NCBI GenBank assembly: GCA_034429955.1
Contig: DAOUFH010000147.1
Location: 1-44,762, forward strand
From: Dehalococcoidales bacterium
GTDB lineage: Bacteria; Chloroflexota; Dehalococcoidia; Dehalococcoidales; UBA3254
Reading direction: 5' to 3'
DNA length: 44,762 nt
The notes below the pieces were generated by a model. That model searched no databases, had not been told where the DNA came from, and was given only the letters and a program-made list of their open reading frames with translations. Shown here one piece after another: positions 21,730 to 43,022 of the stretch. Position 1 is the first letter of the stretch. Each line of letters opens with the position of its first letter. Position numbers and translations under genes: made by a program.

Positions 21730-21866
21730 TTCTACGGACTCCTTGAATTTGATATCCTCATTTTAACACAATGAACAGGAGACCAGTGAGAGCGCCTACT
21801 ATACATTGATGAAAAATTTCAGAAAGGTTATATTGAATTAAGTCTATTCTGCTGTTGAGGTTATCA

Positions 21867-22874
21867 ATGACTGAAAGAACGAAAAAAGCAAAAACTATCA
21901 AGACCTCCAAAAGTCGTAAAACGTCTTCTAAAAAAGTAATCGGAAATTCAGTTGTCTTTGAATCGAATCTAAATCCTATAGAGTTTTATGTTTCTGAAAC
22001 TCAAACAAAATTCCAAACAGAAAAACCGTATACGGTTTTTTATGATGATCCTGATCATTCCGTGAGATTGATTCAGGGTGATTGTATCAAAATATTAAAT
22101 CAAGCTCGGACGGAATCAGTGGATATGATTTTTGCGGATCCGCCCTATTTTCTATCAAATGGTGGGATAACCTGTCATGCAGGGAAAATGGTATCGGTTA
22201 ATAAGGGGGAGTGGGATAAATCGAAAGGCACTCAGGAAAACCATGCTTTTATCATGGAGTGGTTAAAAGCTTGCAAACGTGTACTAAAGCCTAATGGGAC
22301 TATATGGGTTTCAGGAACAACGCATATCATATATTCGATTGGTTACGCTATGCAGGAATTGGATTTTAAGATTCTGAATGACATCGTCTGGTACAAGCGG
22401 AATGCGGCACCTAATCTTTCGTGTCGCTATTTCACTCATTCGACAGAGATTGTGTTATGGGCAGCTAAAGATAAAAATAGTCATCATTATTTCGATTATC
22501 CCAGTATGAAAGCGGAGAACAACGGGAAACAAATGAGAAATTTATGGGATATTGGGGAGATGGAGTCTGAAAAACAAACCGATAATGTATGGGAAATATC
22601 AACCCCCAAATCGGCTGAGAAAGTGTTCGGTAAACATCCAACTCAAAAACCTCTGGAATTATTGAGAAGAATTATCATAGCTTCAACTAAAGAAGGTGAT
22701 CTGGTACTGGATCCGTTTTGCGGCAGTTCGACAACAGGCGTTGAAGCGGTATTACTGAACAGAAAATATGTTGGCATGGACCTGGATGCCGAATATTTGG
22801 AGTTATCTAAAAAACGTTTGGAACAGGTAATCCAAAGATTATCATATCAAGTGAAGAAGGAATTGCCGGTTTAG
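21867..22874 (+). CDS. Beta-class N6-adenine (GATC) DNA methyltransferase, DpnA (M2.DpnII)-like
   Basis: SVDMIFADPPYFLSNGG...VSVNKGEWDK...LKPNGTIWVSGT...APNLSCRYFTHSTE...GKHPTQKP...DPFCGSSTTG is collinear with DpnA as I recall it. ATG 21867 follows GAGG. Confidence 0.88.
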   Translation: MTERTKKAKTIKTSKSRKTSSKKVIGNSVVFESNLNPIEFYVSETQTKFQTEKPYTVFYDDPDHSVRLIQGDCIKILNQARTESVDMIFADPPYFLSNGGITCHAGKMVSVNKGEWDKSKGTQENHAFIMEWLKACKRVLKPNGTIWVSGTTHIIYSIGYAMQELDFKILNDIVWYKRNAAPNLSCRYFTHSTEIVLWAAKDKNSHHYFDYPSMKAENNGKQMRNLWDIGEMESEKQTDNVWEISTPKSAEKVFGKHPTQKPLELLRRIIIASTKEGDLVLDPFCGSSTTGVEAVLLNRKYVGMDLDAEYLELSKKRLEQVIQRLSYQVKKELPV

Positions 22875-22890
22875 TTACAGGATAGATAAA

Positions 22891-23517
22891 TTGGAACGCA
22901 AAGAAGCACTGAAGAAAATTCAGCAGATTATTGGTCATGATCTGAGAATACTGGCCTGCCAGTATGAAATTACCGTCTTTAAGGAAGGGAAAAAGAATAA
23001 AGGCTGGGCGGGACATGTTATTGAAAGATATCTCGGTCTGCCTATGAATTCATCCAGATCGCCCAATTTTGGGTCTTGGGAATTAAAGACTATTTCGTTG
23101 AAACGTCTCTCCAACGGTATGTTTACTATTAAGGAAACTATGGCTATAACCATGATTGATGAATATCACGTTAGAAGAAATGATTTTGAACATAGTCACT
23201 TGTTAACAAAACTACAAAAACAAGTAATCGTAGCCAGAATCTGGAATAACCAACAGGAAAGCTCATCTGTTTTGTTCGGGGTAAAAGAATTTGATTTAAG
23301 TGATCCTGTTATATATAAACAAATTAAAGATGATTATGACTTGGTCAGGAACACCATAATTAATAACGGATACACAGCTTTATCCGGAAAAATGGGTGTA
23401 TTTATTCAACCGAGAACTAAAGGCCCGGGACATGGCAGTACATCAAGGGCCTTTTATGCAAGAACGTCGTTTCTTAAAAATTTACTGTTATTTGATACAG
23501 AATCCGCTACCTCTTAA
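22891..23517 (+). CDS. MutH/Sau3AI-family (GATC-specific PD-(D/E)XK) protein
   Basis: NKGWAGHVIERYLGL....SPNFGSWELKT parallels MutH KGWIGVLLEIWLGA...EQDFAALGVELKT. The size is MutH-like. The start is TTG. Confidence 0.7.
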   Translation: MERKEALKKIQQIIGHDLRILACQYEITVFKEGKKNKGWAGHVIERYLGLPMNSSRSPNFGSWELKTISLKRLSNGMFTIKETMAITMIDEYHVRRNDFEHSHLLTKLQKQVIVARIWNNQQESSSVLFGVKEFDLSDPVIYKQIKDDYDLVRNTIINNGYTALSGKMGVFIQPRTKGPGHGSTSRAFYARTSFLKNLLLFDTESATS

Positions 23518-23794
23518 GTAAATCTATTCGAGTATCTGCCTTATGCCATCCATAAGCATTTTTCTTCCTGAATAGTTCCAATCTCTGATATCTTGTTCAA
23601 TAAATAGCCACTTAATGATTTTCAGAACCAATGATATTACGCTTACCTACACCCATTTTCCAAAAGGTGCGGCTTCATAAGCTTTCGGGGGGCGGTTTCG
23701 GTGATTCTGGTATTGATACGAGAGAACCGTTATAGGGCTTCATCAAATGGCATAGGCAGAAAAGGCAGTTCTCTGATTGATTCAGGCTTTTTTC

Positions 23795-24199
23795 TCATAT
23801 CTTAACCCTTTTGAATACCTGTAATTCAATCGAACGAGGGATCTTACCGGTATTATTATAGTTTTCATAACCTCTGGGTGAAGTAAGTACAATTGAATCA
23901 TAGTCCATAGCAATAGCAATACGCATTATTTTAGCATCCAATGCGAAACGGTCTTTGACGCTTATATTTTGGCTGGATAGAGGTAAATTAAGGGTACGCA
24001 TAATGCTAGGTTCATCCCCGAACAAAGGATTTATGACGCTCACATCAAAGGGGATATCTATAGGTCTACCATAAAATTCAGCATCTCGATATGAGCTTGC
24101 GAAAAATACACCTCTAGCTTTTATTGCTTTTCGGTCTGGTAATGCGGTCCGCCACCATTTATGAGAATTGATATAGGATACAAGTTTTGCATTATTCAT
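23795..24199 (-). CDS. Hypothetical protein (134 aa), translationally coupled to the upstream zinc-ribbon ORF
   Basis: 8-nt ATGAATAA overlap with 24192-24629. I recognise no motif. Confidence 0.45.
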   Translation of the reverse strand: MNNAKLVSYINSHKWWRTALPDRKAIKARGVFFASSYRDAEFYGRPIDIPFDVSVINPLFGDEPSIMRTLNLPLSSQNISVKDRFALDAKIMRIAIAMDYDSIVLTSPRGYENYNNTGKIPRSIELQVFKRVKI

Positions 24200-24629
24200 T
24201 GGATATCAACCCCTTATAGGTTAATCTTCCAGTGCAATCGCATGGAGCATCGAAAGCCTGAGTCTTGGTAGCTTCTTTTAGTCGATGTTTCATAAACCAT
24301 GCGGTTTTCTGAGTGACACCGATATATTTCCCTAACTGGACTGAGGAAATCCCCTTTTTGTGAGTAGTAATGAGGTAAATAGCCATAAACCACTTTTGCA
24401 GGGTTATATGGCTATTTTCAAAAATTGTGCCAACCTTAATGCTGAATTTCTGTCTGCAATCACCGCATTTGTGAATCCGTTTATTTTTAAAATGATAAAT
24501 TCTGGTGCTACCACAATAAGGGCAAAACTGTTTCTCATGCCAGCGAACTTCGGTTAAGTAATCAATGTAAGATTGTTCATCGGGGAATCTTTTGAGCAAC
24601 TCAGCTAGAGATTCAAATTGGGGTAACAT
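24192..24629 (-). CDS. IS1595-family transposase N-terminal zinc-ribbon/HTH domain only (no DDE domain)
   Basis: ..RWHEKQFCPYCGSTR...HKCGDCRQKFSIKVGTIFENSHITLQKWFMAIYLI...ISSVQLGKYIGVTQKTAWFMKHRL.. matches the Zn_Tnp_IS1595 pattern. The ORF ends where the DDE core should begin. Confidence 0.7.
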   Translation of the reverse strand: MLPQFESLAELLKRFPDEQSYIDYLTEVRWHEKQFCPYCGSTRIYHFKNKRIHKCGDCRQKFSIKVGTIFENSHITLQKWFMAIYLITTHKKGISSVQLGKYIGVTQKTAWFMKHRLKEATKTQAFDAPCDCTGRLTYKGLISNE

Positions 24630-24805
24630 ACTTCATATTATTATTACAACAAGTGGGTCTGTCAAGTATATAATTACCAAAAATAATAGTATTTACATAT
24701 TCTGTGGTTTATACATGATATTGATAGCTGGATGAGCTTTCTTCTTTTTTGAGGTCATCCAAAATCGTACACTCCTAAAACTCATACTAGATATATAAGT
24801 TCTTG

Positions 24806-25717
24806 TTACTGTTGAATGATTTTTTCTAGAACTCCAGACCTCAACATATCTACATTGATAATATATTGAATGTATTCGGCTCCAACTTTTAGAGGGTTAT
24901 TCATAGATCTCCATCCTTGCCCATCTGTTAGCCAGACGAATTTCCACCCTGCGGAAGCTAAAACCTGACTCCTGTTTATATAAGAGGGTACAATCTCTGA
25001 AGGTTTTGATCCTGTACCTCCGAAAAAATTGACTTCAATATTAAGTCCCTTATTATCCTTAATAAGGAGGTTGTCTGCTATTTTTTCTTTTAGATCATTC
25101 GGAATATTTATTCCAAGATTTGCTTTTATATACTTAAATTTTTTCTGTTGAAATAATTGAATACTTGGATCTTCATTTATGATTTCATTTATTTTTTCCG
25201 TTACCATTTTTTCCAAGAAGAATCCACTTCGATTTTTCCGTGCATTAGAATCTAGCCCAACTTCCACACCTAACAAATAATCTAAAGGTGAATCCATAGA
25301 ACATAGTTCTTTTAATAAACCGGTTTTTTCTACAAATAATGTAATCTCTTCGATTTCGCTATTAGTGAAATTTTGTTTACTAAAATTGAAAACTTTGTAC
25401 TTGATACAGGGCTTGATTTTATCAAGGACCTGTATTAAGCCATCTCTGCAAGCTATAAGGATAGGAAATACCTTTACTACTTCTGGATATCTCTTAATTA
25501 ATTCCGAAAGATCTTTCTTGGGCGAATTACCCATTTTCAAACTGCTTAGCAGTGATAACTCATATTTGAATATATCTCGATTTTTGATTACCTTTTGCCA
25601 ATTTACGAAAAAATCATATGTGTGATTGGTGTCAATAAGAGAGTCACAAATTCTCTGACATAATTCTTCATCTGTATTAATATTTAAATATTTTTTGTAA
25701 AAACCTTTGTTTATCAT
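24806..25717 (-). CDS. Type II restriction endonuclease, DpnII/MboI family (GATC)
   Basis: ..YPEVVKVFPILIACRD.., GVEVGLDSNARKNRSG, EVNFFGGTGSKPSE and WLTDGQGW are collinear with DpnII (DpnB) as I recall it. Confidence 0.88.
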   Translation of the reverse strand: MINKGFYKKYLNINTDEELCQRICDSLIDTNHTYDFFVNWQKVIKNRDIFKYELSLLSSLKMGNSPKKDLSELIKRYPEVVKVFPILIACRDGLIQVLDKIKPCIKYKVFNFSKQNFTNSEIEEITLFVEKTGLLKELCSMDSPLDYLLGVEVGLDSNARKNRSGFFLEKMVTEKINEIINEDPSIQLFQQKKFKYIKANLGINIPNDLKEKIADNLLIKDNKGLNIEVNFFGGTGSKPSEIVPSYINRSQVLASAGWKFVWLTDGQGWRSMNNPLKVGAEYIQYIINVDMLRSGVLEKIIQQ

Positions 25718-33521: not shown

Positions 33522-33597
33522 GGGCGCTTAGCTCAGCTGGTAGAGCACAGATCTGATAAGTCTGCGGTCAATGGTTCGATCCCATTAGCGCCCACCA
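33522..33597 (+). tRNA. tRNA-Ile (anticodon GAT), CCA encoded
   Basis: GGGCGCTTAGCTCAGCTGGTAGAGCACAGATCTGATAAGTCTGCGGTCAATGGTTCGATCCCATTAGCGCCCACCA folds as a cloverleaf. The anticodon loop is CTGATAA. Confidence 0.9.
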
Positions 33598-33604
33598 TTT
33601 CAGC
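33545..33604 (+). repeat. Direct repeat copy 1 (att-like; 3' two-thirds of tRNA-Ile plus 7 nt)
   Basis: 60 nt, identical to 34986-35045 except for 3 mismatches. All three mismatches fall in the T-arm of copy 2. Confidence 0.85.
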
Positions 33605-33860
33605 CCCTTTTCACAGCCGACTTCAGCTTCGATTTCCGCTATTAATTGCCAAATTATAATTATTAAGATTAACCTGAAACCTCAAAATTCCTTTTATTTT
33701 TGTCTCTTTTTACCTGATCCAATTTTTGAGGCATTATTAAAATTGCATGGTTGCACGGTAACCATGTAAAAAATATAATTTCACCAGTGAGAATATATGT
33801 AATTATTCTTAAGTGATGATTTTACTGCCTATTATTATCCTGGATGTACTAATCATTATT

Positions 33861-33905
33861 TTTGATGGTGTTGACGGGAATAATGTGTAATGTGACTATC
33901 ACTAG
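33861..33905 (+). pseudogene. Possible 3' remnant of a higB toxin gene
   Basis: Translation ..FDGVDGNNV*CDYH* resembles the HigB C-terminus (..F.F.dG.a..v.y.DYH) with an in-frame TAA. It ends 13 nt before the higA ATG. Confidence 0.3.
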
Positions 33906-33918
33906 GGAAGGAAAGAAT

Positions 33919-34206
33919 ATGTTGCCGGAAAATCGAGTGGCTGCCCATCCGGGTGAAATATTAAAAGAGGAATTTCTGAAGCCGGCTGGAATAACCCAGG
34001 TGACTTTTGCACAGCACATCGGAGTGCCCCTCCAAAGAGTGAATGAGATTATCCGGGGCAAACGCGGTATTACTCCGGAAACCGCCTGGCTTTTTTCTCA
34101 AGCACTCGGGACCACCCCGCAGTTCTGGATGAATTTACAAAACGCCTATGACTTGACCAGTAAGCGTCCGGAACGGATTGTTAGTCGTCTTATAAATGCC
34201 GGTTAA
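33919..34206 (+). CDS. higA: HigA-family antitoxin (Xre-type HTH)
   Basis: MLPENRVAAHPGEILKEEFLKPAGITQVTFAQHIGVPLQRVNEIIRGKRGITPETA is the classic HigA pattern. Confidence 0.85.
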   Translation: MLPENRVAAHPGEILKEEFLKPAGITQVTFAQHIGVPLQRVNEIIRGKRGITPETAWLFSQALGTTPQFWMNLQNAYDLTSKRPERIVSRLINAG

Positions 34207-34333
34207 TATTTGAATTTCGTAAAGATAAATTGAAAACCGGATACTGGCAATGGTTGAAACAGTAAAAATGTGAAAGCTGCGTTTGTTTTAATATATTGCT
34301 CAATATTGTTTGCAAAGAGGTGAATGTAAGCCT

Positions 34334-34966
34334 ATGAACGGTCCATCTCCTTTTGAAACACATCCCATGCAGGGGTTTCCCCAGGTCTGTTTTATTAAGA
34401 ACACTGTTTTTAATCCTCAAATCGTTATTGGTGACTATACCTATTACGATGATCCCGAAGATTCAGAACATTTTGAACGGAATGTTTTATATCTGTACCC
34501 ATTCCTGGGGGATAAGCTCATTATCGGTAAATTTTGCGCGATAGCTCGCAATGTAAAATTCATAATGAATGGGGCCAATCATAAACTAAATTGCATTTCT
34601 ACATATCCCTTCAGTATTTTCAGCAACGGCTGGGAAAAGGTGATACCCAGGAAAGAAGAGCTACCTTTCAAAGGTGATACTGTGATTGGAAATGATGTAT
34701 GGATTGGTTATGATTCGTTAATAATGCCGGGTGTAAAAATCGGGGATGGTGCTATCATCGCCGCGCGCTCCGTAGTGGTAAATGATATCGCTCCTTACAC
34801 TGTTGCAGGAGGTAACCCAGCCAGGGTCATTAGAATGCGTTTTCCGCCAGAAACAATAGAATTACTGCTTAAAATCAAATGGTGGGATTGGACTATTGAA
34901 AAAATAACCCGCAATTTGGAAATTATTACCTCCGCTGATGTACAAGCATTGCAAAAAGCCAAATAA
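34334..34966 (+). CDS. vat: Vat-family streptogramin A / xenobiotic O-acetyltransferase (hexapeptide repeat)
   Basis: ..KFIMNGANHKLNCISTYPF..FSNGWEK...KGDTVIGNDVWIGYDSLIMPGVKIGDGAIIAARSVVVNDIAPYTVAGGNPARVIRMRF...IKWWDW is collinear with Vat(D) as I recall it. ATG 34334 follows GAGGTG. Confidence 0.88.
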   Translation: MNGPSPFETHPMQGFPQVCFIKNTVFNPQIVIGDYTYYDDPEDSEHFERNVLYLYPFLGDKLIIGKFCAIARNVKFIMNGANHKLNCISTYPFSIFSNGWEKVIPRKEELPFKGDTVIGNDVWIGYDSLIMPGVKIGDGAIIAARSVVVNDIAPYTVAGGNPARVIRMRFPPETIELLLKIKWWDWTIEKITRNLEIITSADVQALQKAK

Positions 34967-34985
34967 CTGTTAAGCCGAACCTGGT

Positions 34986-35045
34986 GCACAGATCTGATAA
35001 GTCTGCGGTCAATGTTTCAATCTCATTAGCGCCCACCATTTCAGC
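34986..35045 (+). repeat. Direct repeat copy 2 (displaced tRNA-Ile 3' fragment)
   Basis: gcacagatctgataagtctgcggtcaatgTttcAatcTcattagcgcccaccatttcagc. There is no 5' half, so it is not a functional tRNA. Confidence 0.85.
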
Positions 35046-35084: not shown

Positions 35085-35807
35085 TTAATAATCAAACAGA
35101 TAATGAATCATTCTCTCTGGCTGCTCTACAAACTGCTTCATGATTTTATAATTTTCGCACTCCTTATATTTTACCCGCTGCAGACCGTCCTCTGATATTT
35201 GATAGATAACAGCGTCCGGATAAGACAGCAGTATTGGAGAGTGAGTTGCAATAATAAACTGAGAATTTTTTGCAACCAGCCGTTTCATTTCTGTCAGAAG
35301 TGTCATTTGTCTTGAGGGTGATAATGCAGCTTCCGGCTCATCCAATATATATAACCCATTGCCTCTAAAACGATTTTTAACCAGCGCCATAAAGCTTTCG
35401 CCATGAGACTGTTCGTGCAATGATTGCCCGCCATATCCGGCCAGGTCGATGCCTAACTCATCTACTTGCGTTGCTACATTATAAAAACTCTCAGCGCGTA
35501 AAAAGAAGCCGTCCTTCTCATGCGCGGATTTGGCAAGAGTCAAATACTTATGCAAATCTGAAGAGGTTTGATGGGTAGAAAAGGTGAAATTTTTCGAGCC
35601 GCCTTCTGAGTTAAATCCGGCGCAGATGGCAATTGCTTCAATAATGGTAGATTTACCGGTGCCATTTTCACCCACAAAGAAGGTAACGTCGCTGGTGAAA
35701 TCCAGACTTTCGGCTTTAAGCAGCCATTTTACTACAGGTAATTCAGCTAGATACGATTGCTCATCAAACTGCTTTATCTTAATTTGATTAATAAATAAGC
35801 GTTCCAA
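35085..35807 (-). CDS. Stand-alone ABC/SMC-like AAA ATPase (AAA_21/AAA_15-type)
   Basis: Walker A GENGTGKST, signature-like ..SHGES.., Walker B LYILDEPEAALS, H-loop ATHSP. The start is TTG. Confidence 0.7.
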   Translation of the reverse strand: MERLFINQIKIKQFDEQSYLAELPVVKWLLKAESLDFTSDVTFFVGENGTGKSTIIEAIAICAGFNSEGGSKNFTFSTHQTSSDLHKYLTLAKSAHEKDGFFLRAESFYNVATQVDELGIDLAGYGGQSLHEQSHGESFMALVKNRFRGNGLYILDEPEAALSPSRQMTLLTEMKRLVAKNSQFIIATHSPILLSYPDAVIYQISEDGLQRVKYKECENYKIMKQFVEQPERMIHYLFDY

Positions 35808-36040: not shown

Positions 36041-37285
36041 CTAATACTTGCCGAATTCGCGGGTAGCTTCTACCCAGGCTTTAACCAGTTCAGGGCGGGA
36101 GCCTGACATCTCACCCACACCGGTACACATGATAAAGCCGCCACCTTTGCCTACCGTTTCGCATACTATTTTAGTGTGTTCCCGTACTTTCTCAATCGTG
36201 CCGGATACCAGAAGTGAATTCGGCATGCCGCCGATAATGCACATAATAGAACCGAGCATTTCTTTGACCTTGAAGATATCGCTGGTGTGGAACCAGCCGG
36301 CCGTTTTACCGGGGGGTAATTCAGCCAGATAACTCAGGCGTTTGTCCCAGTTGCCTTCATAAAAAATATAGGGGGTAATGTCATTTTCAATAAGCGTTAA
36401 AATGACCTTTTTGAGCTGAGGCCAATAGAACTTTTCAAATTGAGGCAGCGACATGAAGCCGTCTGAACCACGATGCAGCGGAATAAAACAGGTTTTAGTG
36501 CCAGTCGTACGGCGTATGTTGATGGCGTTTTTCAACTGCAACCGGGATACCTTTTCCTCAGCGGCCAGGAGCTGCTCCGGACGCCGGTAGAGATCGAGCA
36601 TAATCCCCCGCATCCCGCGTAAAGTATCAGACATGAAATCAAAGGGTGCGGTGACCTGCATCGAACTGACCACAAAACCTGAAGAAAAACCCAGGTCAGC
36701 CGTTCTCCGGATGTTCCGCGCCATTAGCGCGATATCTTCGGCGGCTGCCTGGGCAGCTTTAGCAAGGGTTTGAAAAGTCTCGGCAAGAGCAGGAATATTC
36801 AGTGTCCCCAGGCCTAAAACACTGTAGGAACCATTCAGAAAAAGGCCCAGGGGCTGTAATAACGACAATCCCTCCAGACCGGCGAACACACGCGGCAGAT
36901 AGACCCTCACCGCCCAATCAGCCGGGTCTTCGAGGAACTCGTCATAGTCCTCAGCTTGCATAAATTCTTTTTCATTGAATTGATATTCAGAGTTTGGACT
37001 GGAACCATGCCCCGGGAAAGTTGTCATGCGGTCACCCAGAAGCAGATGGGGTTTGGGGTCGGGCGGAAAAAGACCGAAGATAGCGTCCGGCTGAAACTCC
37101 ACGGCTGCCTTTTCCAGCAGTTCCTGGGCTTTTTCGGTATCATCGTGCAATTCCTGGCGGGATATCCCGCCAATGTCAGCCAGCATATAACTCATCGGCA
37201 GTATAATCGGGATGCAATCCGGTTGTCTTAGCTGGATGGCAGTCTGGATGCGGTTATCCCGTTCTAGAAACATCTTATCTGACAT
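36041..37285 (-). CDS. Uroporphyrinogen-decarboxylase (URO-D) superfamily protein, paralog 1
   Basis: 414 aa. It shares long motifs with 41706-43022 (EYQF.E.EFMQ..., YLPRV, FD..S..LRGM.G.M.D.YRRP..LL, IPL.RG...FMS..QF..FYWP.LKK, G.GGGFI). It lacks the HemE RQAGR N-terminal motif. Confidence 0.75.
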   Translation of the reverse strand: MSDKMFLERDNRIQTAIQLRQPDCIPIILPMSYMLADIGGISRQELHDDTEKAQELLEKAAVEFQPDAIFGLFPPDPKPHLLLGDRMTTFPGHGSSPNSEYQFNEKEFMQAEDYDEFLEDPADWAVRVYLPRVFAGLEGLSLLQPLGLFLNGSYSVLGLGTLNIPALAETFQTLAKAAQAAAEDIALMARNIRRTADLGFSSGFVVSSMQVTAPFDFMSDTLRGMRGIMLDLYRRPEQLLAAEEKVSRLQLKNAINIRRTTGTKTCFIPLHRGSDGFMSLPQFEKFYWPQLKKVILTLIENDITPYIFYEGNWDKRLSYLAELPPGKTAGWFHTSDIFKVKEMLGSIMCIIGGMPNSLLVSGTIEKVREHTKIVCETVGKGGGFIMCTGVGEMSGSRPELVKAWVEATREFGKY

Positions 37286-38079: not shown

Positions 38080-39477
38080 ATGAAGCATTTTGCAGATATA
38101 CAAAGCGAGCTTATTAAAGCTACTCGGACATGGGCTTTGGGAGACAGCACCGGACTTGCTCATGCTGCAGAATTACGCAATCAAGCAATTCGGCTTAACC
38201 AGATCCACTACCGGGAAAATATTCCACTGTACCGCAAGATAGCAGAGGAAGAGGGATTGGGAGCGGATGCTGACATTGCCACAATTAAGAAAAATCTCAT
38301 GTTTTCCTCCGATATATTTAAGAGCTACGAACAGTCCTGGTTGGACGACAACAATTTCAGCAGTATGTCGCAATGGCTCTCCAGTATCTACCACAGGCGT
38401 ATCGATACAGATGTATCCGGTGTCCAATCTATCGATGCCTGGATAGAATGTCTCGAAACAAGCGGTGTCCATGTGGTCTACAGTTCCGGCACGTCGGGTG
38501 CCTTTTCTTTTGTCCCTAGAGATAAAAAGAACTGGCAGCTATCCATGACGGCAAATAGTGCCTGCCTCTCCCCTCTTCTGGCCGGTCGGATAACCGGTGG
38601 ATTATCACAAAAAATCCTTGGATCAACTCTTAAACTAATGGCCCCGGATGTCTTTGACAAACTTGCTGCTAAAAAAATGCTGTCAGAATTCGATGCTGCC
38701 TTCCTGGGATTCCGCTCCGGCCGGATGGGCAATCAGGCTCTGATCGAGGAGTTATCCCAGCTCTTTCAGCGGCCTTATTTTCTCTATGATATAGGTCTGA
38801 GTGGTACCGCCTTGCGCGTTCTCAGACGGGGTGCCGGAACAGAACAGGAAAACCGGACTGTTGAAAAATTAAGGCGCGAACTGACAGACCGGAAAGACGC
38901 AAACTACTTGAAAATGATAGATAATATCCGGCATTCAACCAAAGAGGGGCAAAAGGTATTTATATTTGGCGCGCCTCATCAGTTCAAGGAACTGTGTGAA
39001 ATTATGGCAGCTTATAAGCTGCCTGTGTCTCTGAATAAAGGCAGCCTCGTACTCTTTGGCGGCGGTTGGAAATCATTTACAGGGGAGGCGATAAAACGGG
39101 AGACTTTAGTTAACAGGCTTACAGAGTCTTTAGATATATCACCCGATATGGTTTTGGAAGGTTATTCAATGACGGAAATTAATACCCTCATGCTGCGTTG
39201 TAAGCAGGGCTGTTTTCATATTCCGCCCATTATCGAACCGGCGGTCTTCGATGAAGAGATGAACTTAAGGGAAGGCAAAGACATAAAAGGTGCTTTCGGT
39301 TTCCTCGACCCTATGGCGGTTGCTTACCCTGGTTTCATTATCAGCAATGATTATGTTCATATGATAGAGGGAGTGTGCGCTTGCGGGCTTTCGGGTCCTG
39401 CGATAACAGAAATAGGACGTATATCAGGTAGTGAGATAAAGGGGTGCGGAGGTATTATGGGCTCCATACAGGCCTGA
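38080..39477 (+). CDS. LuxE-family acyl-protein synthetase-like adenylating enzyme
   Basis: YSSGTSGAFSF phosphate-binding loop. A single Cys in ..IKGCGGIMGSIQA lies 10 residues from the C-terminus. It is paired with a LuxC-like gene 12 nt downstream. Confidence 0.75.
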   Translation: MKHFADIQSELIKATRTWALGDSTGLAHAAELRNQAIRLNQIHYRENIPLYRKIAEEEGLGADADIATIKKNLMFSSDIFKSYEQSWLDDNNFSSMSQWLSSIYHRRIDTDVSGVQSIDAWIECLETSGVHVVYSSGTSGAFSFVPRDKKNWQLSMTANSACLSPLLAGRITGGLSQKILGSTLKLMAPDVFDKLAAKKMLSEFDAAFLGFRSGRMGNQALIEELSQLFQRPYFLYDIGLSGTALRVLRRGAGTEQENRTVEKLRRELTDRKDANYLKMIDNIRHSTKEGQKVFIFGAPHQFKELCEIMAAYKLPVSLNKGSLVLFGGGWKSFTGEAIKRETLVNRLTESLDISPDMVLEGYSMTEINTLMLRCKQGCFHIPPIIEPAVFDEEMNLREGKDIKGAFGFLDPMAVAYPGFIISNDYVHMIEGVCACGLSGPAITEIGRISGSEIKGCGGIMGSIQA

Positions 39478-39489
39478 GAGGAATCTGAT

Positions 39490-41076
39490 ATGGAAAGACA
39501 ATGTATTAGGTATAATTTATTAAACCTGGAAGGCGGCCTGGTCAGGGTGCCGTTTCTTATCAAGGGGAAGCTGTTAGTACCACCTGAAATCGGTAAGCAG
39601 GAAATCGAAAGTGCATTCAGCCAGGCTGACGAGACGATTACTTGCGTTAAACTGGCTGGGGGACAAGTCGTCCGTGAGCCTGTAATTGACCGCAAAACTA
39701 TGAAATATACAGGGGAATACCTCTACCTGGTCATGCCTTCAGTCTGCGGTTCAGCTCTCATCGAAACCGATACAGATAAGCTGGTACATGAACTTTATGC
39801 GTTATCTGTAGACAATATACTCGATTATCTGGCAGCCGTTTTATCCACCATAGAGGCCGGTAACCGGTTGATCTCGCAGATAAGTGAAATTAGCCGTCTG
39901 ACATCGGAATACCCGGACACTTTTCTGGATAACTGGTTTAACTCTTTTCAATTAACTTTCAGCCGTGAAGCGGCGCTCAAGATGATTGACACCGAGCTTT
40001 CCTTCGGAGAGAGGCCGGGCAGCGATTTTCTGAACGGATGGGTGGATATTCCCGCTTCAATATCACCCGGGTGCTTTCATATCTGCAATTTGTTCGCTAA
40101 AGGCATCAGCGATTCTGCCAAAGAAGTTAAGTATAGTATACGCGCTATGCCAACCAGGCAACTTCATATCACTGCCGGCAATACCCCGGATGTGCCACTG
40201 GTTTCTGCACTGCGTGCCGTGCTAACCAAGTCCGCCGCCGTAATCAAATTACCTTATGGCGCCTGCCTGACAGGAGCTTTATTTGCTTTAGCGGCAGTGG
40301 CTGCTGCTCCCAATCATCCTGTCACGAAAAATCTTTCTATGGTCTACTGGCAAGGGGGTGACGAGAGCGTAGAAAATACCCTTTTTAAGTCTAATGGGTT
40401 TGACCGGATTGTGGTCTGGGGCAGCCCGGAAACAGTCAGTGCGATAAAGTCCAAGGCGCTCGCCAGGGTTATTTGTCTCGACCCTCGCTATGGAGTTAGT
40501 CTGATAGGCAAGCAAGCTTTCTCCGGCAATATTGAAGAAACAGCAGCTAAAGCCTCACTGGATGTGATGCTTTATAACCAGAAGGCTTGCACTTCTTCTC
40601 TGGTGCACTATGTTGAAAGCACAGAGGAACAGGCCAACGAGTATGCACAGTCTCTATGTAATCTTTTAGGCAAGTGGGATAAAGAAATTCCTAACTTCGT
40701 ACAACCTTCTGCGATAGGACAAATCAAGCGTATGAGACGCGGGAGATATGCTAATGCCCGGTGGTATATAAATAAGGATTGCTCGTCCGGAGTAGTGGTG
40801 ATATCGGGGGAGTTTGATATCCTTAACCACCCGATGTGCCGGATAGTAGTGGTACGACCGGTAGCCAAACTGGAAGACTCTTTGAGGTATATGAACCGCT
40901 ATGTCTCGACTGTCGGTGTTTATCCTGAAGGCCGTAGACTGGAATTAAAAGACAGAATACTCGCCAAAGGTGTTTCCAGTGTATTCAGTCTCGGACAGTG
41001 CGATAGTGTCTATGCAGGGATGCCCCATGATGGGATGAGGATTTTAAGTGAACTGGTAGACTGGAAAAACAGTTGA
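39490..41076 (+). CDS. LuxC-family acyl-CoA/acyl-protein reductase-like (ALDH superfamily)
   Basis: LHITAGNTPDVPLVSALRAVLTKSAAVIKLP, APNHPVTKNLSMVYW, DRIVVWGS and YNQKACTSS (catalytic Cys) are collinear with Vibrio LuxC as I recall it. RBS is GAGAGGAA. Confidence 0.8.
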   Translation: MERQCIRYNLLNLEGGLVRVPFLIKGKLLVPPEIGKQEIESAFSQADETITCVKLAGGQVVREPVIDRKTMKYTGEYLYLVMPSVCGSALIETDTDKLVHELYALSVDNILDYLAAVLSTIEAGNRLISQISEISRLTSEYPDTFLDNWFNSFQLTFSREAALKMIDTELSFGERPGSDFLNGWVDIPASISPGCFHICNLFAKGISDSAKEVKYSIRAMPTRQLHITAGNTPDVPLVSALRAVLTKSAAVIKLPYGACLTGALFALAAVAAAPNHPVTKNLSMVYWQGGDESVENTLFKSNGFDRIVVWGSPETVSAIKSKALARVICLDPRYGVSLIGKQAFSGNIEETAAKASLDVMLYNQKACTSSLVHYVESTEEQANEYAQSLCNLLGKWDKEIPNFVQPSAIGQIKRMRRGRYANARWYINKDCSSGVVVISGEFDILNHPMCRIVVVRPVAKLEDSLRYMNRYVSTVGVYPEGRRLELKDRILAKGVSSVFSLGQCDSVYAGMPHDGMRILSELVDWKNS

Positions 41077-41268
41077 TGTAGTGACATAGTAGCGGATGAT
41101 AACGAAGCCCTGATTATCACTAGACCGGGAGGACGGGATGTGGTCATGATCTCCAAAGCCCGGTATTACAATATCATCAATATGGGCAACAAGGCTAACT
41201 GCGCATGGTTCCTGCCGGGTAAGAAGCAGGCGGAATCCGGTAAATTAAGAGAAGTTGCAATCGAGTGA
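41077..41268 (+). pseudogene. 5'-truncated Phd/YefM-family antitoxin gene
   Basis: The frame opens directly after the luxC-like TGA and has no start: ..VADDNEALIITRPGGRDVVMISKARYYNI...KQAESGKLREVAIE*. It has a 4-bp GTGA overlap with the toxin ORF. Confidence 0.5.
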
Positions 41269-41505
41269 TAAAACTTTTCACCGATACCGGGGGTGAAGAC
41301 TATACCTTCCGGCTTGAGAACGACTACAGAACACTCAAGAAAATCCACCGTTTGTTCAAATATATCGCCCATTCTTCTTTTGAAGCTTTGGGTAAACCTG
41401 AGCCGCTGAAATTACTGGTCGCGGCGTATCAACGAAACCGACAGGGTGTATAAGGTCGAGAAGGAAACCATCATCGTAATTGTCTGCAGAAGTCAGTATA
41501 AATAA
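41265..41505 (+). pseudogene. Frameshifted YoeB/Txe-family toxin gene
   Basis: MIKLFTDTGGEDY..LENDYRTLKKIHRLFKYIAHSSFEALGKPEPLK matches YoeB. After about nt 41425 the conserved C-terminus (..INETDRVYKVEKETIIVIVCRSQYK*) continues in the +1 frame. Confidence 0.7.
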
Positions 41506-41705: not shown

Positions 41706-43022
41706 ATGGATTTTCCGACTTCGGCAGAGCAATACAACCGGGAGAACCTTGAACTCAAAGCTCAGATTGAAAAACGGACAGGTAAAACCACTGAACAATT
41801 ATATGCGGAAAGGGAGAAACTGGTCAGAGACGCTATAGACCTGAAAGAACCCGAGAGGATCCCCTTTTCGGTTAATATCGATGCTCCGGCTTATTGCGGA
41901 GTCTCCAATTCAGCCGCTTATTATGACCCTCTGAGCTGGAAGGCTGCCATGCGCTGCATAACACTGGACCTTGAACCTGATATCGCCAATGCCGGTCTGC
42001 CCACTTCCGGTTCCGCCATGGAATTGCTGGACGTCAAGAACAAGCTGTGGCCGGGTGGAAATTTGCCTCCCAGTTACGAGTACCAGTTTGTCGAAGGTGA
42101 GTTTATGCAGGAAGATGAATATGACATGTTCATCTCCGATCCTACCGGCTTTATGCTGCGCCGTTATCTGCCCCGTGTTTACGGTGCGATGACACCGCTG
42201 GCCAAACTGCCGACATTGGATTCAATCTACCTGGGCTTCGAAGGCCTGAGCTCACTTTTCGCCAGTCCGGAGTTCGTGGAAATGGCGACCAGGGTGGCCG
42301 AGGCCGGCCGTAAAACCGCTGAATACCGCCAGGTCGTGGGAGATTCCTATGAAGAGCTGGCCCAGCTGGGTTTTCCCGGACTGGGTTCACCCAATGCGGT
42401 AGGTGTGGGCGGCGCGCCCTTCGATACCCTTTCCAGTTTCCTGCGGGGTATGAAAGGCTCGATGGTGGATATGTACCGCCGTCCGGCAAAACTGCTGCAA
42501 GCCTGCGAACTGATATTGGAACGCCGCATTGCCGTGGCTGAACCGGCCGATCCGAAACAAAGAGGGAATCCCAAGAGAATCGGTATTCCGCTCTGGCGCG
42601 GCGATAAAGCTTTTATGTCCGATGCCCAGTTTAAACGTTTCTACTGGCCGGGTTTGAAAAAAGCCCTGCAGGCCGATATCGATCTGGGTTTTGTGCCCAT
42701 GCCTTTCTTTGAGGCGGAGTTCGGCGACCGCCTGGAATGCCTGCTGGAACTGCCCAAAGGCAAAGTGCTGGCTTCGGTGGAGTATATGGATGCGGCGAAA
42801 GCCAGGGCAATCTTGAAGGGGCATGCCTGTGTGATGGTGCGTTGTCCTCCTCTTTCATCCAGGGTCTGGTCTCTGTCTGAGGTCGAGAGCTATGTCAAGG
42901 ATGTTATCGATAAGTACGGCCGGGGTGGAGGCTTTATACTCAATGTCCGGATTCCCGACAAAGGCACCCCGGCGGAGAAACAGGCTATGGTTAAGGCAAT
43001 CAGGGATTACGCGAGAAGATAG
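41706..43022 (+). CDS. Uroporphyrinogen-decarboxylase (URO-D) superfamily protein, paralog 2
   Basis: 438 aa with an AGGAGGG RBS. See 36041-37285 for the shared motifs. Confidence 0.75.
   Translation: MDFPTSAEQYNRENLELKAQIEKRTGKTTEQLYAEREKLVRDAIDLKEPERIPFSVNIDAPAYCGVSNSAAYYDPLSWKAAMRCITLDLEPDIANAGLPTSGSAMELLDVKNKLWPGGNLPPSYEYQFVEGEFMQEDEYDMFISDPTGFMLRRYLPRVYGAMTPLAKLPTLDSIYLGFEGLSSLFASPEFVEMATRVAEAGRKTAEYRQVVGDSYEELAQLGFPGLGSPNAVGVGGAPFDTLSSFLRGMKGSMVDMYRRPAKLLQACELILERRIAVAEPADPKQRGNPKRIGIPLWRGDKAFMSDAQFKRFYWPGLKKALQADIDLGFVPMPFFEAEFGDRLECLLELPKGKVLASVEYMDAAKARAILKGHACVMVRCPPLSSRVWSLSEVESYVKDVIDKYGRGGGFILNVRIPDKGTPAEKQAMVKAIRDYARR

What the first reader, a model, noticed from the sequence alone, without database searches (positions are those of the whole stretch)
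38080..41076. Stand-alone LuxE-like/LuxC-like carboxylate activation-reduction pair without luciferase or LuxD
Two same-strand ORFs, 12 nt apart, look like the synthetase and reductase subunits of the lux fatty-acid reductase. The first has the SSGTSG adenylation loop. The second has HITAGNTP..., ..NHPVTKNLSMVYW.. and the ALDH-type catalytic Cys in NQKACTSS. Nothing resembling luxA/B, luxD or a flavin reductase is in the window, and the surrounding gene content looks anaerobic. In established lux biology, LuxE adenylates a fatty acid and self-acylates, then LuxC reduces the acyl group to an aldehyde. Here the substrate and the fate of the aldehyde are unknown. Both proteins are longer than the Vibrio proteins (465 aa vs about 375 aa, and 528 aa vs about 480 aa).
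Basis: partly seen in the sequence, partly recalled or inferred. Interest (0 to 1): 0.7.

Follow-up and report, generated by a model that had tools for sequence, protein, structure and literature searches.

The report
Non-luminous LuxE–LuxC acid-reductase gene pair
Two adjacent genes in an uncultured Dehalococcoidales chromosome encode a distant, longer version of the two enzymes that luminous bacteria use to turn a fatty acid into an aldehyde; the pair is a self-contained module found without any light-making genes in at least ten bacterial phyla, and its substrate and purpose are unknown.

Summary
The interpretation also holds. Pfam assigns them only to LuxE and LuxC. Family profiles hit only the Photobacterium LuxE and LuxC chains (7XC6) in the whole PDB, with no PaaK and no generic ALDH. 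The LuxC-like model matches LuxC best.

All residues of the Lux acyl relay are invariant across 71-78 homologs. In the LuxE-like protein these are the P-loop, GGGWK331, R447 and K-G-C456 with a 9-residue tail. In the LuxC-like protein they are C367 and D514 (H513 in 68 of 78).

The two genes are adjacent and co-directional in 77 of 77 testable loci, and they co-evolve (r = 0.94). No third gene recurs, and the window has no luxAB, luxD or flavin reductase.

They are not Lux orthologs: they score far below the NCBIfam equivalog cut-offs. They form a small "long" subfamily with a distinctive LuxC N-terminus and extra invariant Cys/His in LuxE.

The most likely function is a stand-alone ATP/NAD(P)H-dependent carboxylic-acid (probably fatty-acid) reductase. 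Substrate and physiological role remain uncharacterised. I rate this a new variant of a known kind, of moderate interest.

The parts
38080..39477 (+). LuxE-like acyl-protein synthetase (465 aa), the adenylating subunit. It is a 'long' form, with about 90 extra residues, all in the N-terminal half.
   Evidence: ORF. Pfam LuxE 76.5 bits. Only PDB sequence relative is 7XC6_E. AF2 model pLDDT 87.4. Superfamily-level fold match to PaaK-type ANL enzymes.
38482..38499 (+). ANL P-loop SSGTSG (aa 135-140), for ATP binding and adenylation
   Evidence: Coordinates. S135, S136 and G137 are invariant in 71/71 homologs; the other three positions are conserved in 67-70 of 71. It aligns to the SSGTSG of LuxE.
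39058..39072 (+). GGGWK loop (aa 327-331). K331 corresponds to the catalytic Lys238 of LuxE.
   Evidence: G328, G329, W330 and K331 are 71/71; G327 is 68/71. The LuxE 234-GGGWK loop and the inactive K238A mutant are described in PMC9157457.
39199..39219 (+). C374...H380. Together with C433/C435 these are subfamily-specific invariant Cys/His residues, a candidate Cys3His metal site.
   Evidence: C374 71/71 and H380 70/71. C374 aligns to a non-Cys residue in canonical LuxE. The metal-site reading is inference only.
39376..39387 (+). CxCG motif (C433, C435), subfamily-specific and invariant
   Evidence: 71/71 for each Cys. Not present in 7XC6_E in the alignment.
39418..39420 (+). R447, equivalent to LuxE Arg355 (the hinge Arg that PMC9157457 equates with PaaK1 Arg326). 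The protein ends 18 residues later, so there is no ANL C-terminal subdomain.
   Evidence: R447 71/71. Aligned to the RR354-355 of LuxE. Role described in PMC9157457.
39439..39474 (+). C-terminal swinging arm: K454-G-C456 (acyl-acceptor Cys, equivalent to LuxE Cys364) plus a 9-residue tail
   Evidence: C456 and G455 71/71. The tail is exactly 9 aa in 70/71. The tail is also 9 aa in P. phosphoreum LuxE (Cys364 of 373).
39478..39489 (+). 12-nt intergenic spacer with a GAGG ribosome-binding site. The short spacer suggests the two genes are translationally coupled.
   Evidence: Spacers in homologous loci are mostly 9-19 nt, and the genes overlap by 4 nt in some loci.
39490..41076 (+). LuxC-like acyl-thioester reductase (528 aa), ALDH fold. 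Its N-terminal ~210 aa are subfamily-specific in sequence.
   Evidence: ORF. Pfam LuxC 150.4 bits. AF2 pLDDT 83.8. Best Foldseek hit is 7xc6_A at E 1.2e-24 with TMt 0.75, against about 1e-15 for generic ALDHs. The exhaustive HMMER search shows that only about 45 representatives align from residue ~1; the others align from ~215.
40165..40188 (+). HITAGNTP motif (aa 226-233) of the cofactor-binding domain, shared with LuxC HLLAGNVP
   Evidence: H226, G230, N231 and P233 are 78/78. Alignment.
40588..40590 (+). Catalytic Cys367, equivalent to LuxC Cys296
   Evidence: 78/78. Aligned to the Cys of QQAC in 7XC6_A. C296 role from PMC9157457.
41026..41031 (+). H513-D514, equivalent to LuxC His442/Asp443 (essential residues at the cleft entry)
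   Evidence: D514 78/78; H513 68/78, otherwise Q. Alignment. Mutant data in PMC9157457.

Best explanation
The two genes encode a self-contained, two-subunit, LuxEC-type carboxylic-acid reductase that has nothing to do with light production.

Inferred mechanism, by homology with the Photobacterium LuxC-LuxE complex:
1. The LuxE-like subunit adenylates a carboxylic acid with ATP, using the P-loop SSGTSG, Lys331 of the GGGWK loop and Arg447.
2. It moves the acyl group onto its own Cys456, which sits on a flexible C-terminal arm.
3. The arm swings into the LuxC-like subunit and hands the acyl group to Cys367.
4. NAD(P)H then reduces the thioester and a free aldehyde is released.

What is shown here:
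- family membership of both proteins;
- conservation of every relay residue across phyla;
- obligate adjacency and co-evolution of the two genes;
- absence of any other obligate partner.

What is inferred: the chemistry, the complex formation and the cofactor.

The substrate is most probably a medium- or long-chain fatty or other lipid-type acid. The aldehyde would be passed on to non-dedicated host enzymes, for example reduced to an alcohol. This part is the weakest: about 50% given that the mechanism is right.
For: Family assignment:
- Pfam gives LuxE and LuxC only.
- Profile searches of the whole PDB hit only 7XC6_E (1.9e-22) and 7XC6_A (1.3e-26).
- LuxC is the best structural match over the full length, nine orders of magnitude in E-value ahead of generic ALDHs.

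Relay residues, as defined experimentally in PMC9157457:
- LuxE-like: K331, R447 and C456 are invariant in 71/71. The tail after the Cys is 9 aa in 70/71, the same as in LuxE. The protein ends 18 aa after R447, so it lacks the ANL C-terminal subdomain, as LuxE does.
- LuxC-like: C367 and D514 are 78/78 and H513 is 68/78.
- No ALDH general-base Glu appears in the aligned stretch; the ELGG-type position reads L-D-P-R-Y-G. This fits a non-hydrolytic, reductive enzyme.

Coupling of the two genes:
- Adjacent and co-directional in 77/77 loci from Chloroflexota, Thermodesulfobacteriota, Spirochaetota, Acidobacteriota, Actinomycetota, Myxococcota, Planctomycetota, Nitrospirota and others.
- Spacers are short or the genes overlap.
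- Pairwise identities of E and C correlate with r = 0.94 over 2278 pairs.

Autonomy:
- The pair stands alone in 32 of 71 loci.
- No Pfam family occurs in more than 5 of the 66 nearest same-strand neighbours.

Hints of a lipid-type substrate:
- Clade-limited neighbours are a 3beta-HSD/male-sterility-type reductase, an SDR, a tandem FabH-like KAS III, a B12-radical-SAM enzyme, a GT28 glycosyltransferase and a Zn-ADH in Acidobacteriota and Spirochaetia.
- In Desulfatibacillum and relatives they are an OYE-type reductase and an acyl-CoA dehydrogenase.
- A more distant LuxC-family relative is fused to the same 3beta-HSD-type reductase.
Against: - No biochemical data exist for any member of this subfamily (literature searches).
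- Four cleft-entry residues essential in P. phosphoreum LuxC are replaced: S166->V/I, F297->I/T, Q402->S/A, F436->V/A/M. The substrate pocket therefore differs.
- Only the C-terminal half of ORF1 matches the LuxE profile.
- Foldseek ranks PaaK-family structures first for the LuxE-like model. This is explained by only 118 of 373 LuxE residues being resolved in 7XC6.
- The salt-bridge partner LuxE-R354 is not conserved: G446 is G in 41 of 71 sequences.
- In the window and in most Dehalococcoidales loci nothing nearby points to a fate for the aldehyde.
- The hetero-complex itself could not be modelled with the tools available.
Confidence: 0.75

Rival explanations
1. The acyl relay is the same, but the natural substrate is not a fatty acid. 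It could be an aromatic, isoprenoid or other specialised carboxylate, and the aldehyde would feed a specific pathway encoded elsewhere in the genome.
For: - Four substrate-cleft entry residues of LuxC are replaced.
- The subfamily carries extra invariant Cys/His in LuxE and a distinctive N-terminal ~210 aa in LuxC.
- The nearest structural relatives of the adenylating subunit are aryl-acid/phenylacetate ligases.
- Around the Dehalococcoidales copies there is no lipid gene. One clade has a heliorhodopsin gene just downstream.
Against: - Where neighbours are informative they are lipid or acyl-CoA enzymes: FabH-like, SDR, 3beta-HSD-type reductase, acyl-CoA dehydrogenase, OYE.
- The replaced cleft residues are still mostly aliphatic (V/I, I/T, V/A/M).
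- The heliorhodopsin linkage is confined to one clade and can be explained by shared synteny.
Confidence: 0.2
2. The two proteins do not form a Lux-type relay. ORF2 would act alone as an acyl-CoA/acyl-ACP reductase, like TabE. ORF1 would be an independent ligase or an acyl-transferring enzyme that modifies another protein or lipid.
For: - LuxC can reduce acyl-CoA on its own in vitro, and TabE is a stand-alone LuxC-like acyl-thioester reductase (bioRxiv 10.1101/2025.08.11.669332).
- The LuxC-D335/LuxE-R354 salt bridge is not conserved.
Against: - Adjacency in 77/77 loci, near-perfect co-evolution, short spacers or overlaps, and an invariant acceptor Cys on a tail of fixed length are hard to explain without direct hand-over between the two proteins.
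Confidence: 0.04
3. A catabolic pair: a PaaK-like CoA ligase plus an ordinary aldehyde dehydrogenase working in the oxidative direction.
For: The ANL N-domain fold resembles PaaK1/BT_0428, and the ALDH fold resembles Box-pathway and semialdehyde dehydrogenases at E~1e-15.
Against: - No Pfam AMP-binding or Aldedh hit at E<1.
- No PaaK or ALDH sequence hit in the PDB even at E<=10 with family profiles.
- No ANL C-terminal subdomain, which a CoA ligase needs for thioesterification.
- No ALDH general-base Glu.
Confidence: 0.01

Closest known systems
LuxC-LuxE fatty acid reductase of luminous bacteria (Photobacterium phosphoreum complex, PDB 7XC6; PMC9157457)
   Same: - Same two Pfam families.
- Same catalytic set: P-loop, Lys in the GGGWK loop, hinge Arg, C-terminal K-G-C with a 9-residue tail, LuxC catalytic Cys and His-Asp.
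- The adenylating subunit lacks the ANL C-terminal subdomain.
- LuxC is the best structural match.
   Different: - Only about 17% identity in the structural alignment for LuxC.
- Far below the ortholog cut-offs.
- Tight E->C bicistron instead of luxC-D-A-B-E.
- No LuxD acyl-transferase, luciferase or flavin reductase.
- LuxE-like is +92 aa, all N-terminal to residue 278, with extra invariant C374/C433/C435.
- LuxC-like is 528 aa, about 40-50 aa longer than the Photobacterium protein, and its N-terminal ~210 aa do not align in sequence with other LuxCs.
- Four cleft-entry residues are changed.
- The host is a non-luminous Dehalococcoidales bacterium, an order whose cultured members are strict anaerobes (my own knowledge, not tested here).
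LuxE/LuxC homologs annotated in flagellin glycosylation islands of Aeromonas and Enterobacteriaceae (PMC7874193, PMC4875605)
   Same: A LuxE + LuxC pair outside any lux operon in non-luminous bacteria, with a presumed lipid-modifying role and no biochemical characterisation.
   Different: Those pairs sit in a conserved island with ACP, 3-oxoacyl-ACP reductase, an AMP-dependent synthetase and glycosyltransferases. The present subfamily has no conserved partners. Sequence relationship to those proteins was not measured here.
Uncharacterised 'acyl-CoA reductase' + 'hypothetical protein' pairs on proteobacterial megaplasmids (Novosphingobium pentaromativorans pLA3, Paraburkholderia sprentiae pl1WSM5005)
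   Same: LuxC-family reductase next to a 448-461-aa long-LuxE-like protein that shares the N-terminal extension and the P-loop.
   Different: - Gene order is C->E.
- 23-33% identity.
- The LuxC is shorter (~475-487 aa).
- The Paraburkholderia protein lacks the CxC motif at the aligned position.
- Contexts differ: MarR/TetR regulators, ADH, SDR, PaaI thioesterase.
Carboxylic acid reductases (CAR; A-PCP-R multidomain enzymes) and TabE-type stand-alone LuxC-like acyl-thioester reductases
   Same: Same net chemistry: ATP activation of an acid, a thioester intermediate, NAD(P)H reduction to an aldehyde. TabE shares the LuxC/ALDH-like fold.
   Different: - CAR uses a phosphopantetheinyl carrier domain and an SDR-type reductase, whereas here a protein Cys on a C-terminal arm and an ALDH-fold reductase are used.
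- TabE works without a LuxE partner and without ATP.

Membership tests
Pfam LuxE (PF04443), acyl-protein synthetase | Profile score above the gathering threshold, and better than competing ANL models | tested here: met
   76.5 bits vs cut-off 24.9, with no AMP-binding/PaaK hit at E<1. Only profile positions 195-386 of 391 are matched. The family profile hits only 7XC6_E in the PDB (1.9e-22).
Pfam LuxE (PF04443), acyl-protein synthetase | Catalytic Lys in the GGGWK loop (Lys238) and Arg355 | tested here: met
   K331 and R447 are invariant in 71/71. They align to LuxE. Roles from PMC9157457.
Pfam LuxE (PF04443), acyl-protein synthetase | Acyl-acceptor Cys in a C-terminal K-G-C motif on a flexible tail, and no ANL C-terminal subdomain | tested here: met
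   C456 is 71/71. The tail is 9 aa in 70/71, as in LuxE (C364 of 373). The protein ends 18 aa after the hinge Arg.
Pfam LuxE (PF04443), acyl-protein synthetase | ATP-dependent self-acylation activity | not testable with these tools
   Needs enzyme assays and mass spectrometry.
NCBIfam equivalog LuxE (NF052244) and LuxC (NF052251), i.e. true lux orthologs | Score above the equivalog cut-off | tested here: not met
   60.4 vs cut-off 550, and 116.7 vs cut-off 750.
Pfam LuxC (PF05893), acyl-thioester reductase of ALDH fold | Profile score above threshold and better than generic ALDH; LuxC is the closest structure | tested here: met
   150.4 bits vs cut-off 21, with no Aldedh hit at E<1. Foldseek best hit 7xc6_A at 1.2e-24 vs about 1e-15 for ALDHs. 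The profile hits only 7XC6_A in the PDB.
Pfam LuxC (PF05893), acyl-thioester reductase of ALDH fold | Catalytic Cys296 with His442/Asp443; no ALDH general-base Glu | tested here: met
   C367 78/78, D514 78/78, H513 68/78. The aligned ELGG position reads LDPRYG.
Pfam LuxC (PF05893), acyl-thioester reductase of ALDH fold | Conserved cleft-entry residues S166, F297, Q402 and F436 of the myristoyl-binding cleft | tested here: not met
   Replaced by V/I235, I/T368, S/A473 and V/A/M507. This bears on substrate specificity, not on family membership.
Bacterial lux system (luxCDABE) | Luciferase luxA/luxB, acyl-transferase luxD and a flavin reductase in the same locus | tested here: not met
   None found in the 44.8-kb window. 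None found among recurrent neighbours in 80 related loci.
PaaK/F390-synthetase-type acyl-CoA ligases | ANL C-terminal subdomain carrying the A10 Lys; sequence-profile match | tested here: not met
   No Pfam or PDB-profile hit, and the protein ends just after motif A8. Only the N-domain fold is shared.
Known anti-phage defence systems (PADLOC) | Match to any defence-system protein model | tested here: not met
   No hit for either protein. No relatives on viral contigs.

The most novel reading that the evidence does not exclude
The 'long' LuxEC pair is a horizontally spread, fully autonomous two-protein carboxylate reductase with its own subfamily-specific metal (Cys3His) site. It would act on an unusual, non-fatty-acid substrate and supply an aldehyde that its hosts cannot otherwise make. 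One example would be regenerating retinal for the heliorhodopsin gene that lies directly downstream in one Dehalococcoidales clade. Another would be making an aldehyde or alcohol building block for unusual membrane lipids in anaerobes.
Probability: 0.1. Interest if true: 0.7.

Novelty: new variant of a known kind. Interest (0 to 1): 0.4.

Why it matters
Carboxylic-acid reduction to aldehydes is valuable chemistry for biofuels, fragrances and alcohols. Only a few enzyme solutions are known: CAR, AOR and LuxCDE.

This analysis defines a compact two-gene LuxEC-type module that needs no LuxD. It keeps the whole acyl-relay machinery yet has a remodelled substrate entrance. It occurs in at least ten phyla, including cultured Desulfatibacillum alkenivorans, Leptospira perolatii and Nocardia, so its function is directly testable.

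It also shows that database labels such as 'acyl-CoA reductase, GO: bioluminescence' and 'hypothetical protein' are misleading for these genes. Finally, it raises the question of what aldehyde a streamlined anaerobe such as a Dehalococcoidales bacterium needs. Without a substrate or a phenotype this remains a moderate, hypothesis-generating result.

Tried and rejected
1. **A conserved third gene.** All-vs-all clustering of every ORF in 80 loci found only clade-limited neighbours. A Pfam scan of the 66 nearest same-strand neighbours gave the same result.
2. **Defence-island hypothesis.** This was prompted by the neighbouring AAA_15/21 ATPase, the HTH gene, the YoeB remnant, and Shedu in L005. 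PADLOC gives no hit for the pair, and the neighbours are not conserved.
3. **Phage-borne gene.** No relative on IMG/VR contigs.
4. **Plasmid-borne.** Only 25-33% relatives from other subfamilies.
5. **tRNA-flanked island containing the pair.** The tRNA-Ile 3'-end repeat closes at 35038, upstream of the pair.
6. **LuxC-LuxE 'Rosetta stone' fusions.** The 817-884-aa LuxC proteins are fused to a 3beta-HSD-type reductase, a P450, a PaaK-like domain or unassigned sequence, not to this LuxE type.
7. **Ether-lipid supply idea.** Several host groups make alkyl-glycerol lipids (from my own memory). No supporting gene linkage or literature was found, so I dropped it as a specific claim.
8. **Heliorhodopsin linkage.** It is seen only in 7 loci of one clade and was judged to be synteny.
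9. **Regulatory RNA or promoter in the 794-nt upstream gap.** No Rfam hit, and promoter-like and terminator-like sites are no more frequent than in shuffled sequence.
10. **Literature on this subfamily.** None in the searchable library. One apparent 'LuxE + Dehalococcoidia' paper matched only the word 'Luxembourg'.
11. **Hetero-complex prediction and pocket geometry.** Not possible: the structure tool predicts single chains only and returns no coordinates.


Full report
**1. Observation**

The window carries two same-strand ORFs at exactly the stated coordinates: 38080-39477 (465 aa) and 39490-41076 (528 aa). They are separated by 12 nt that contain a GAGG ribosome-binding site 8 nt before the second ATG. 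All quoted motifs are present at the stated places: SSGTSG, HITAGNTP, NHPVTKNLSMVYW and NQKACTSS.

The pair is preceded by a 794-nt gene-free, AT-rich stretch. That stretch has no Rfam match and no promoter signal above chance. Downstream lies a decayed Phd/YefM-YoeB toxin-antitoxin remnant.

Pfam scans of the window's ORFs of at least 110 aa, apart from shorter ORFs nested inside longer ones, show ordinary chromosomal genes:
- ribosomal protein L9, DnaB, PyrF, a Mur ligase, H+-pyrophosphatase, Asd, PurF;
- two restriction-modification systems;
- a molybdopterin oxidoreductase.

There is no luciferase, LuxD or flavin reductase. The DnaB protein is 74-86% identical to proteins of Dehalococcoidales MAGs. 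The host is therefore an uncultured Dehalococcoidales (Chloroflexota) bacterium. The identical locus is found on 127-265-kb metagenome contigs.

**2. Family assignment**

- Pfam assigns ORF1 only to LuxE (76.5 bits, cut-off 24.9; C-terminal half of the profile only).
- Pfam assigns ORF2 only to LuxC (150.4 bits, cut-off 21).
- No AMP-binding/PaaK or Aldedh match appears at E<1.
- NCBIfam's ortholog-level models are missed by a wide margin: 60 vs 550 and 117 vs 750. These are family members, not Lux orthologs.
- Against all PDB sequences, the single proteins hit only the two chains of the Photobacterium phosphoreum LuxC-LuxE complex, 7XC6.
- The family profiles, even at E<=10, hit the same two chains: LuxE at 1.9e-22, and LuxC at 1.3e-26 with only noise at E>=0.076 behind it.

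AlphaFold2 models are confident, with pLDDT 83.8 for the LuxC-like protein and 87.4 for the LuxE-like protein. The LuxC-like model matches 7xc6_A best over its whole length (E 1.2e-24, TM 0.75). Generic ALDHs follow at about 1e-15.

The LuxE-like model matches PaaK-type ANL enzymes at TM about 0.5. The LuxE chain is not ranked because only 118 of its 373 residues are resolved in 7XC6.

**3. Mechanistic residues**

The cryo-EM paper (PMC9157457) defines the relay as follows:
- LuxE Lys238 in the GGGWK loop;
- LuxE Arg355;
- LuxE Cys364 in a flexible C-terminal TRxxKGCxLS tail;
- no ANL C-terminal subdomain in LuxE;
- LuxC Cys296, with His442/Asp443 at the cleft entry.

I aligned 71 LuxE-like and 78 LuxC-like sequences taken from loci in at least ten phyla. 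The results:
- The P-loop, GGGWK331, R447 and K/R454-G-C456 are conserved. S135, S136, G137, G328, G329, W330, K331, R447, G455 and C456 are 71/71.
- The tail after the Cys is exactly 9 residues in 70/71, the same as in LuxE (Cys364 of 373).
- The protein ends 18 residues after the hinge Arg.
- In the LuxC-like protein C367 and D514 are 78/78 and H513 is 68/78.
- No ALDH general-base Glu is present at the aligned position.

The differences:
- Four cleft-entry residues essential in PpLuxC are replaced: S166->V/I, F297->I/T, Q402->S/A, F436->V/A/M.
- The LuxE-like protein has about 92 extra residues, all before residue 278.
- It carries subfamily-specific invariant C374, H380, C433 and C435. This could be a Cys3His metal site, but that is inference only.

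**4. Distribution and context**

- The LuxC-like protein has more than 580 homologs in the 5.8-billion-protein collection. The best are 50-71% identical and 500-535 aa long, and the named ones come from Dehalococcoidales MAGs.
- The LuxE-like protein behaves the same way.
- An exhaustive HMMER search of 1.84 billion representatives finds 1258 relatives. Only about 45 align from residue ~1; the rest align only from ~215. The N-terminal ~210 residues therefore define a small 'long' subfamily.
- A scan of one genome per GTDB species confirmed 185 candidate stretches that encode a relative. The 80 best were fetched as loci. They span Dehalococcoidales, Anaerolineae, Smithella, Desulfatibacillum alkenivorans DSM 16219, Spirochaetia, Leptospira perolatii, Acidobacteriaceae, Pyrinomonadaceae, Nitrospirae, Nocardia, Mycobacterium, Archangium, Nannocystaceae, Gemmatales and Pirellulaceae.
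- By tblastn, a LuxE-like gene is adjacent on the same strand in 77 of 77 loci with flanking DNA: 75 upstream and 2 downstream.
- Spacers are mostly 9-19 nt, or the genes overlap by 4 nt.
- Pairwise identities of the two proteins correlate with r = 0.94.
- No third gene is conserved. The pair has no same-strand neighbour within 120 nt in 32 of 71 loci. No Pfam family occurs in more than 5 of the 66 nearest same-strand neighbours.

Clade-limited neighbours are lipid-type enzymes:
- In Acidobacteriota and Spirochaetia: a 3beta-HSD/'male-sterility' reductase, an SDR, a tandem FabH-like KAS III, a B12-radical-SAM enzyme, a GT28 and a Zn-ADH.
- In Desulfatibacillum and relatives: an OYE-type reductase and an acyl-CoA dehydrogenase.

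A more distant LuxC-family relative is fused to the same 3beta-HSD-type reductase. More distant LuxC + long-LuxE-like pairs, annotated 'acyl-CoA reductase' + 'hypothetical protein', occur on proteobacterial megaplasmids.

**5. Interpretation**

The most likely reading (confidence 0.75) is a self-contained LuxEC-type, ATP- and NAD(P)H-dependent carboxylic-acid reductase. It would work through the Cys456 -> Cys367 acyl relay and release an aldehyde.

Shown here: family membership, residue conservation, obligate pairing and autonomy. Inferred: the chemistry, the complex formation and the cofactor. A fatty or lipid-type acid is the best guess for the substrate (about 50%), from the clade-limited neighbours and the fusion. 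The remodelled cleft entrance leaves room for a different substrate (rival, 0.2).

A model in which the two proteins work independently is unlikely given their co-evolution (0.04). A PaaK-ligase + ALDH catabolic pair is effectively excluded (0.01). Defence, phage and island explanations found no support.

**6. Comparison with what is known, and novelty**

LuxE/LuxC homologs outside lux operons have been noticed before, for example in Aeromonas flagellin glycosylation islands (PMC7874193). A stand-alone LuxC-like reductase, TabE, has been characterised. The ALDH review treats LuxEC only as the bioluminescence enzyme (PMC12041015).

I found nothing on this long subfamily in the searchable literature. 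It is therefore a new variant of a known kind. The machinery is the same. The operon logic differs (tight E->C bicistron, no LuxD), the proteins are expanded, the pocket is remodelled and the role is unknown.

**7. Verdict**

Interest is moderate (0.4). The module is widespread, compact and experimentally tractable, but it does not overturn anything known, and its substrate and purpose are unresolved.

Noticed in passing
window 33522-35038: tRNA-Ile(GAT) at 33522-33597 is followed by a ~1.4-kb AT-rich islet. The islet carries an HTH_3 regulator (33862-34206) and a Vat-family streptogramin A O-acetyltransferase (34310-34966; NCBIfam Vat_ABCDEFH 317 bits, cut-off 300). It ends in a 22/25 copy of the tRNA 3' end at 35014-35038 (0 expected by chance). 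This looks like the remnant of an integrated element carrying a resistance-type gene in a Dehalococcoidales genome.
   Followed up: partly
window 41140-41453: Decayed type II toxin-antitoxin module directly downstream of the LuxC-like gene. It consists of a 42-aa Phd/YefM-like fragment (41140-41268) and a 62-aa truncated YoeB-like toxin (41265-41453; PF06769 in the JGI gene call).
   Followed up: partly
window 36041-37285 (-) and 41706-43022 (+): Two divergent paralogs (31% identity, E 3e-59) of a long URO-D/MtaA-CmuA-like family bracket the LuxEC pair. The second gets no Pfam or NCBIfam hit at all. Neither is conserved next to the pair in other genomes.
   Followed up: partly
window 35085-35807 (-): Short (240 aa) AAA_15/AAA_21 ATPase with best PADLOC matches to MADS3, AriA (PARIS), PtuA (Septu) and GajA ATPases. 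It is much shorter than those proteins and has no recognisable partner gene, so it may be a truncated defence ATPase.
   Followed up: partly
window 21855-25717: Low-GC segment (0.34-0.38, against about 0.5 around it) with two restriction-modification-like sets. One is an N6/N4 DNA methylase plus a MutH/Sau3AI-like nuclease (21855-23517). The other is a DpnII-family endonuclease (24806-25717) next to a small protein with an IS1595-type zinc ribbon and a weak DpnI-like match (24192-24629). Probably horizontally acquired.
   Followed up: no
L005, L010, L012, L016, L017, L062, L070 (downstream of LuxC, e.g. L012 7662-8423): In one Dehalococcoidales clade a heliorhodopsin gene lies on the same strand just after the LuxC-like gene (224 nt away in L012). 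A variable one-gene insertion slot sits between them in other members; in L005 it holds a Shedu SduA_C gene. The reductase makes an aldehyde and rhodopsins need the aldehyde retinal. However, the linkage is confined to this clade and may be plain synteny.
   Followed up: partly
window 39199-39219 and 39376-39387 (LuxE-like C374, H380, C433, C435): Three cysteines invariant in 71 homologs from at least ten phyla, plus a histidine present in 70 of them. The cysteines are absent from canonical LuxE. They may form a metal-binding site or provide extra relay thiols.
   Followed up: partly
P0298, P0320, P0384 (hits): LuxC-family proteins of 817-884 aa are natural fusions. The partners are a 3beta-HSD/epimerase/'male-sterility' reductase domain (P0298), a cytochrome P450 (P0320) and a PaaK-like adenylating domain (P0384). 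These suggest different downstream fates of the aldehyde, or different activation routes, in other branches of the family.
   Followed up: partly
L041 11682-21545; also L071 and L075 upstream, L085 downstream: In a MAG of unknown phylum the LuxEC pair is followed by a run of at least seven paralogous ~300-390-aa genes of a 4Fe-4S dicluster protein family. The same family lies near the pair in Desulfatibacillum and in a Syntrophobacteria MAG.
   Followed up: no
L086 5806-8590; L087 5650-8495: RefSeq annotates the LuxC-family genes on Novosphingobium and Paraburkholderia megaplasmids with 'GO: bioluminescence'. Their adjacent long-LuxE-like partners are annotated 'hypothetical protein'. This is a systematic annotation gap for non-lux LuxEC pairs.
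   Followed up: partly
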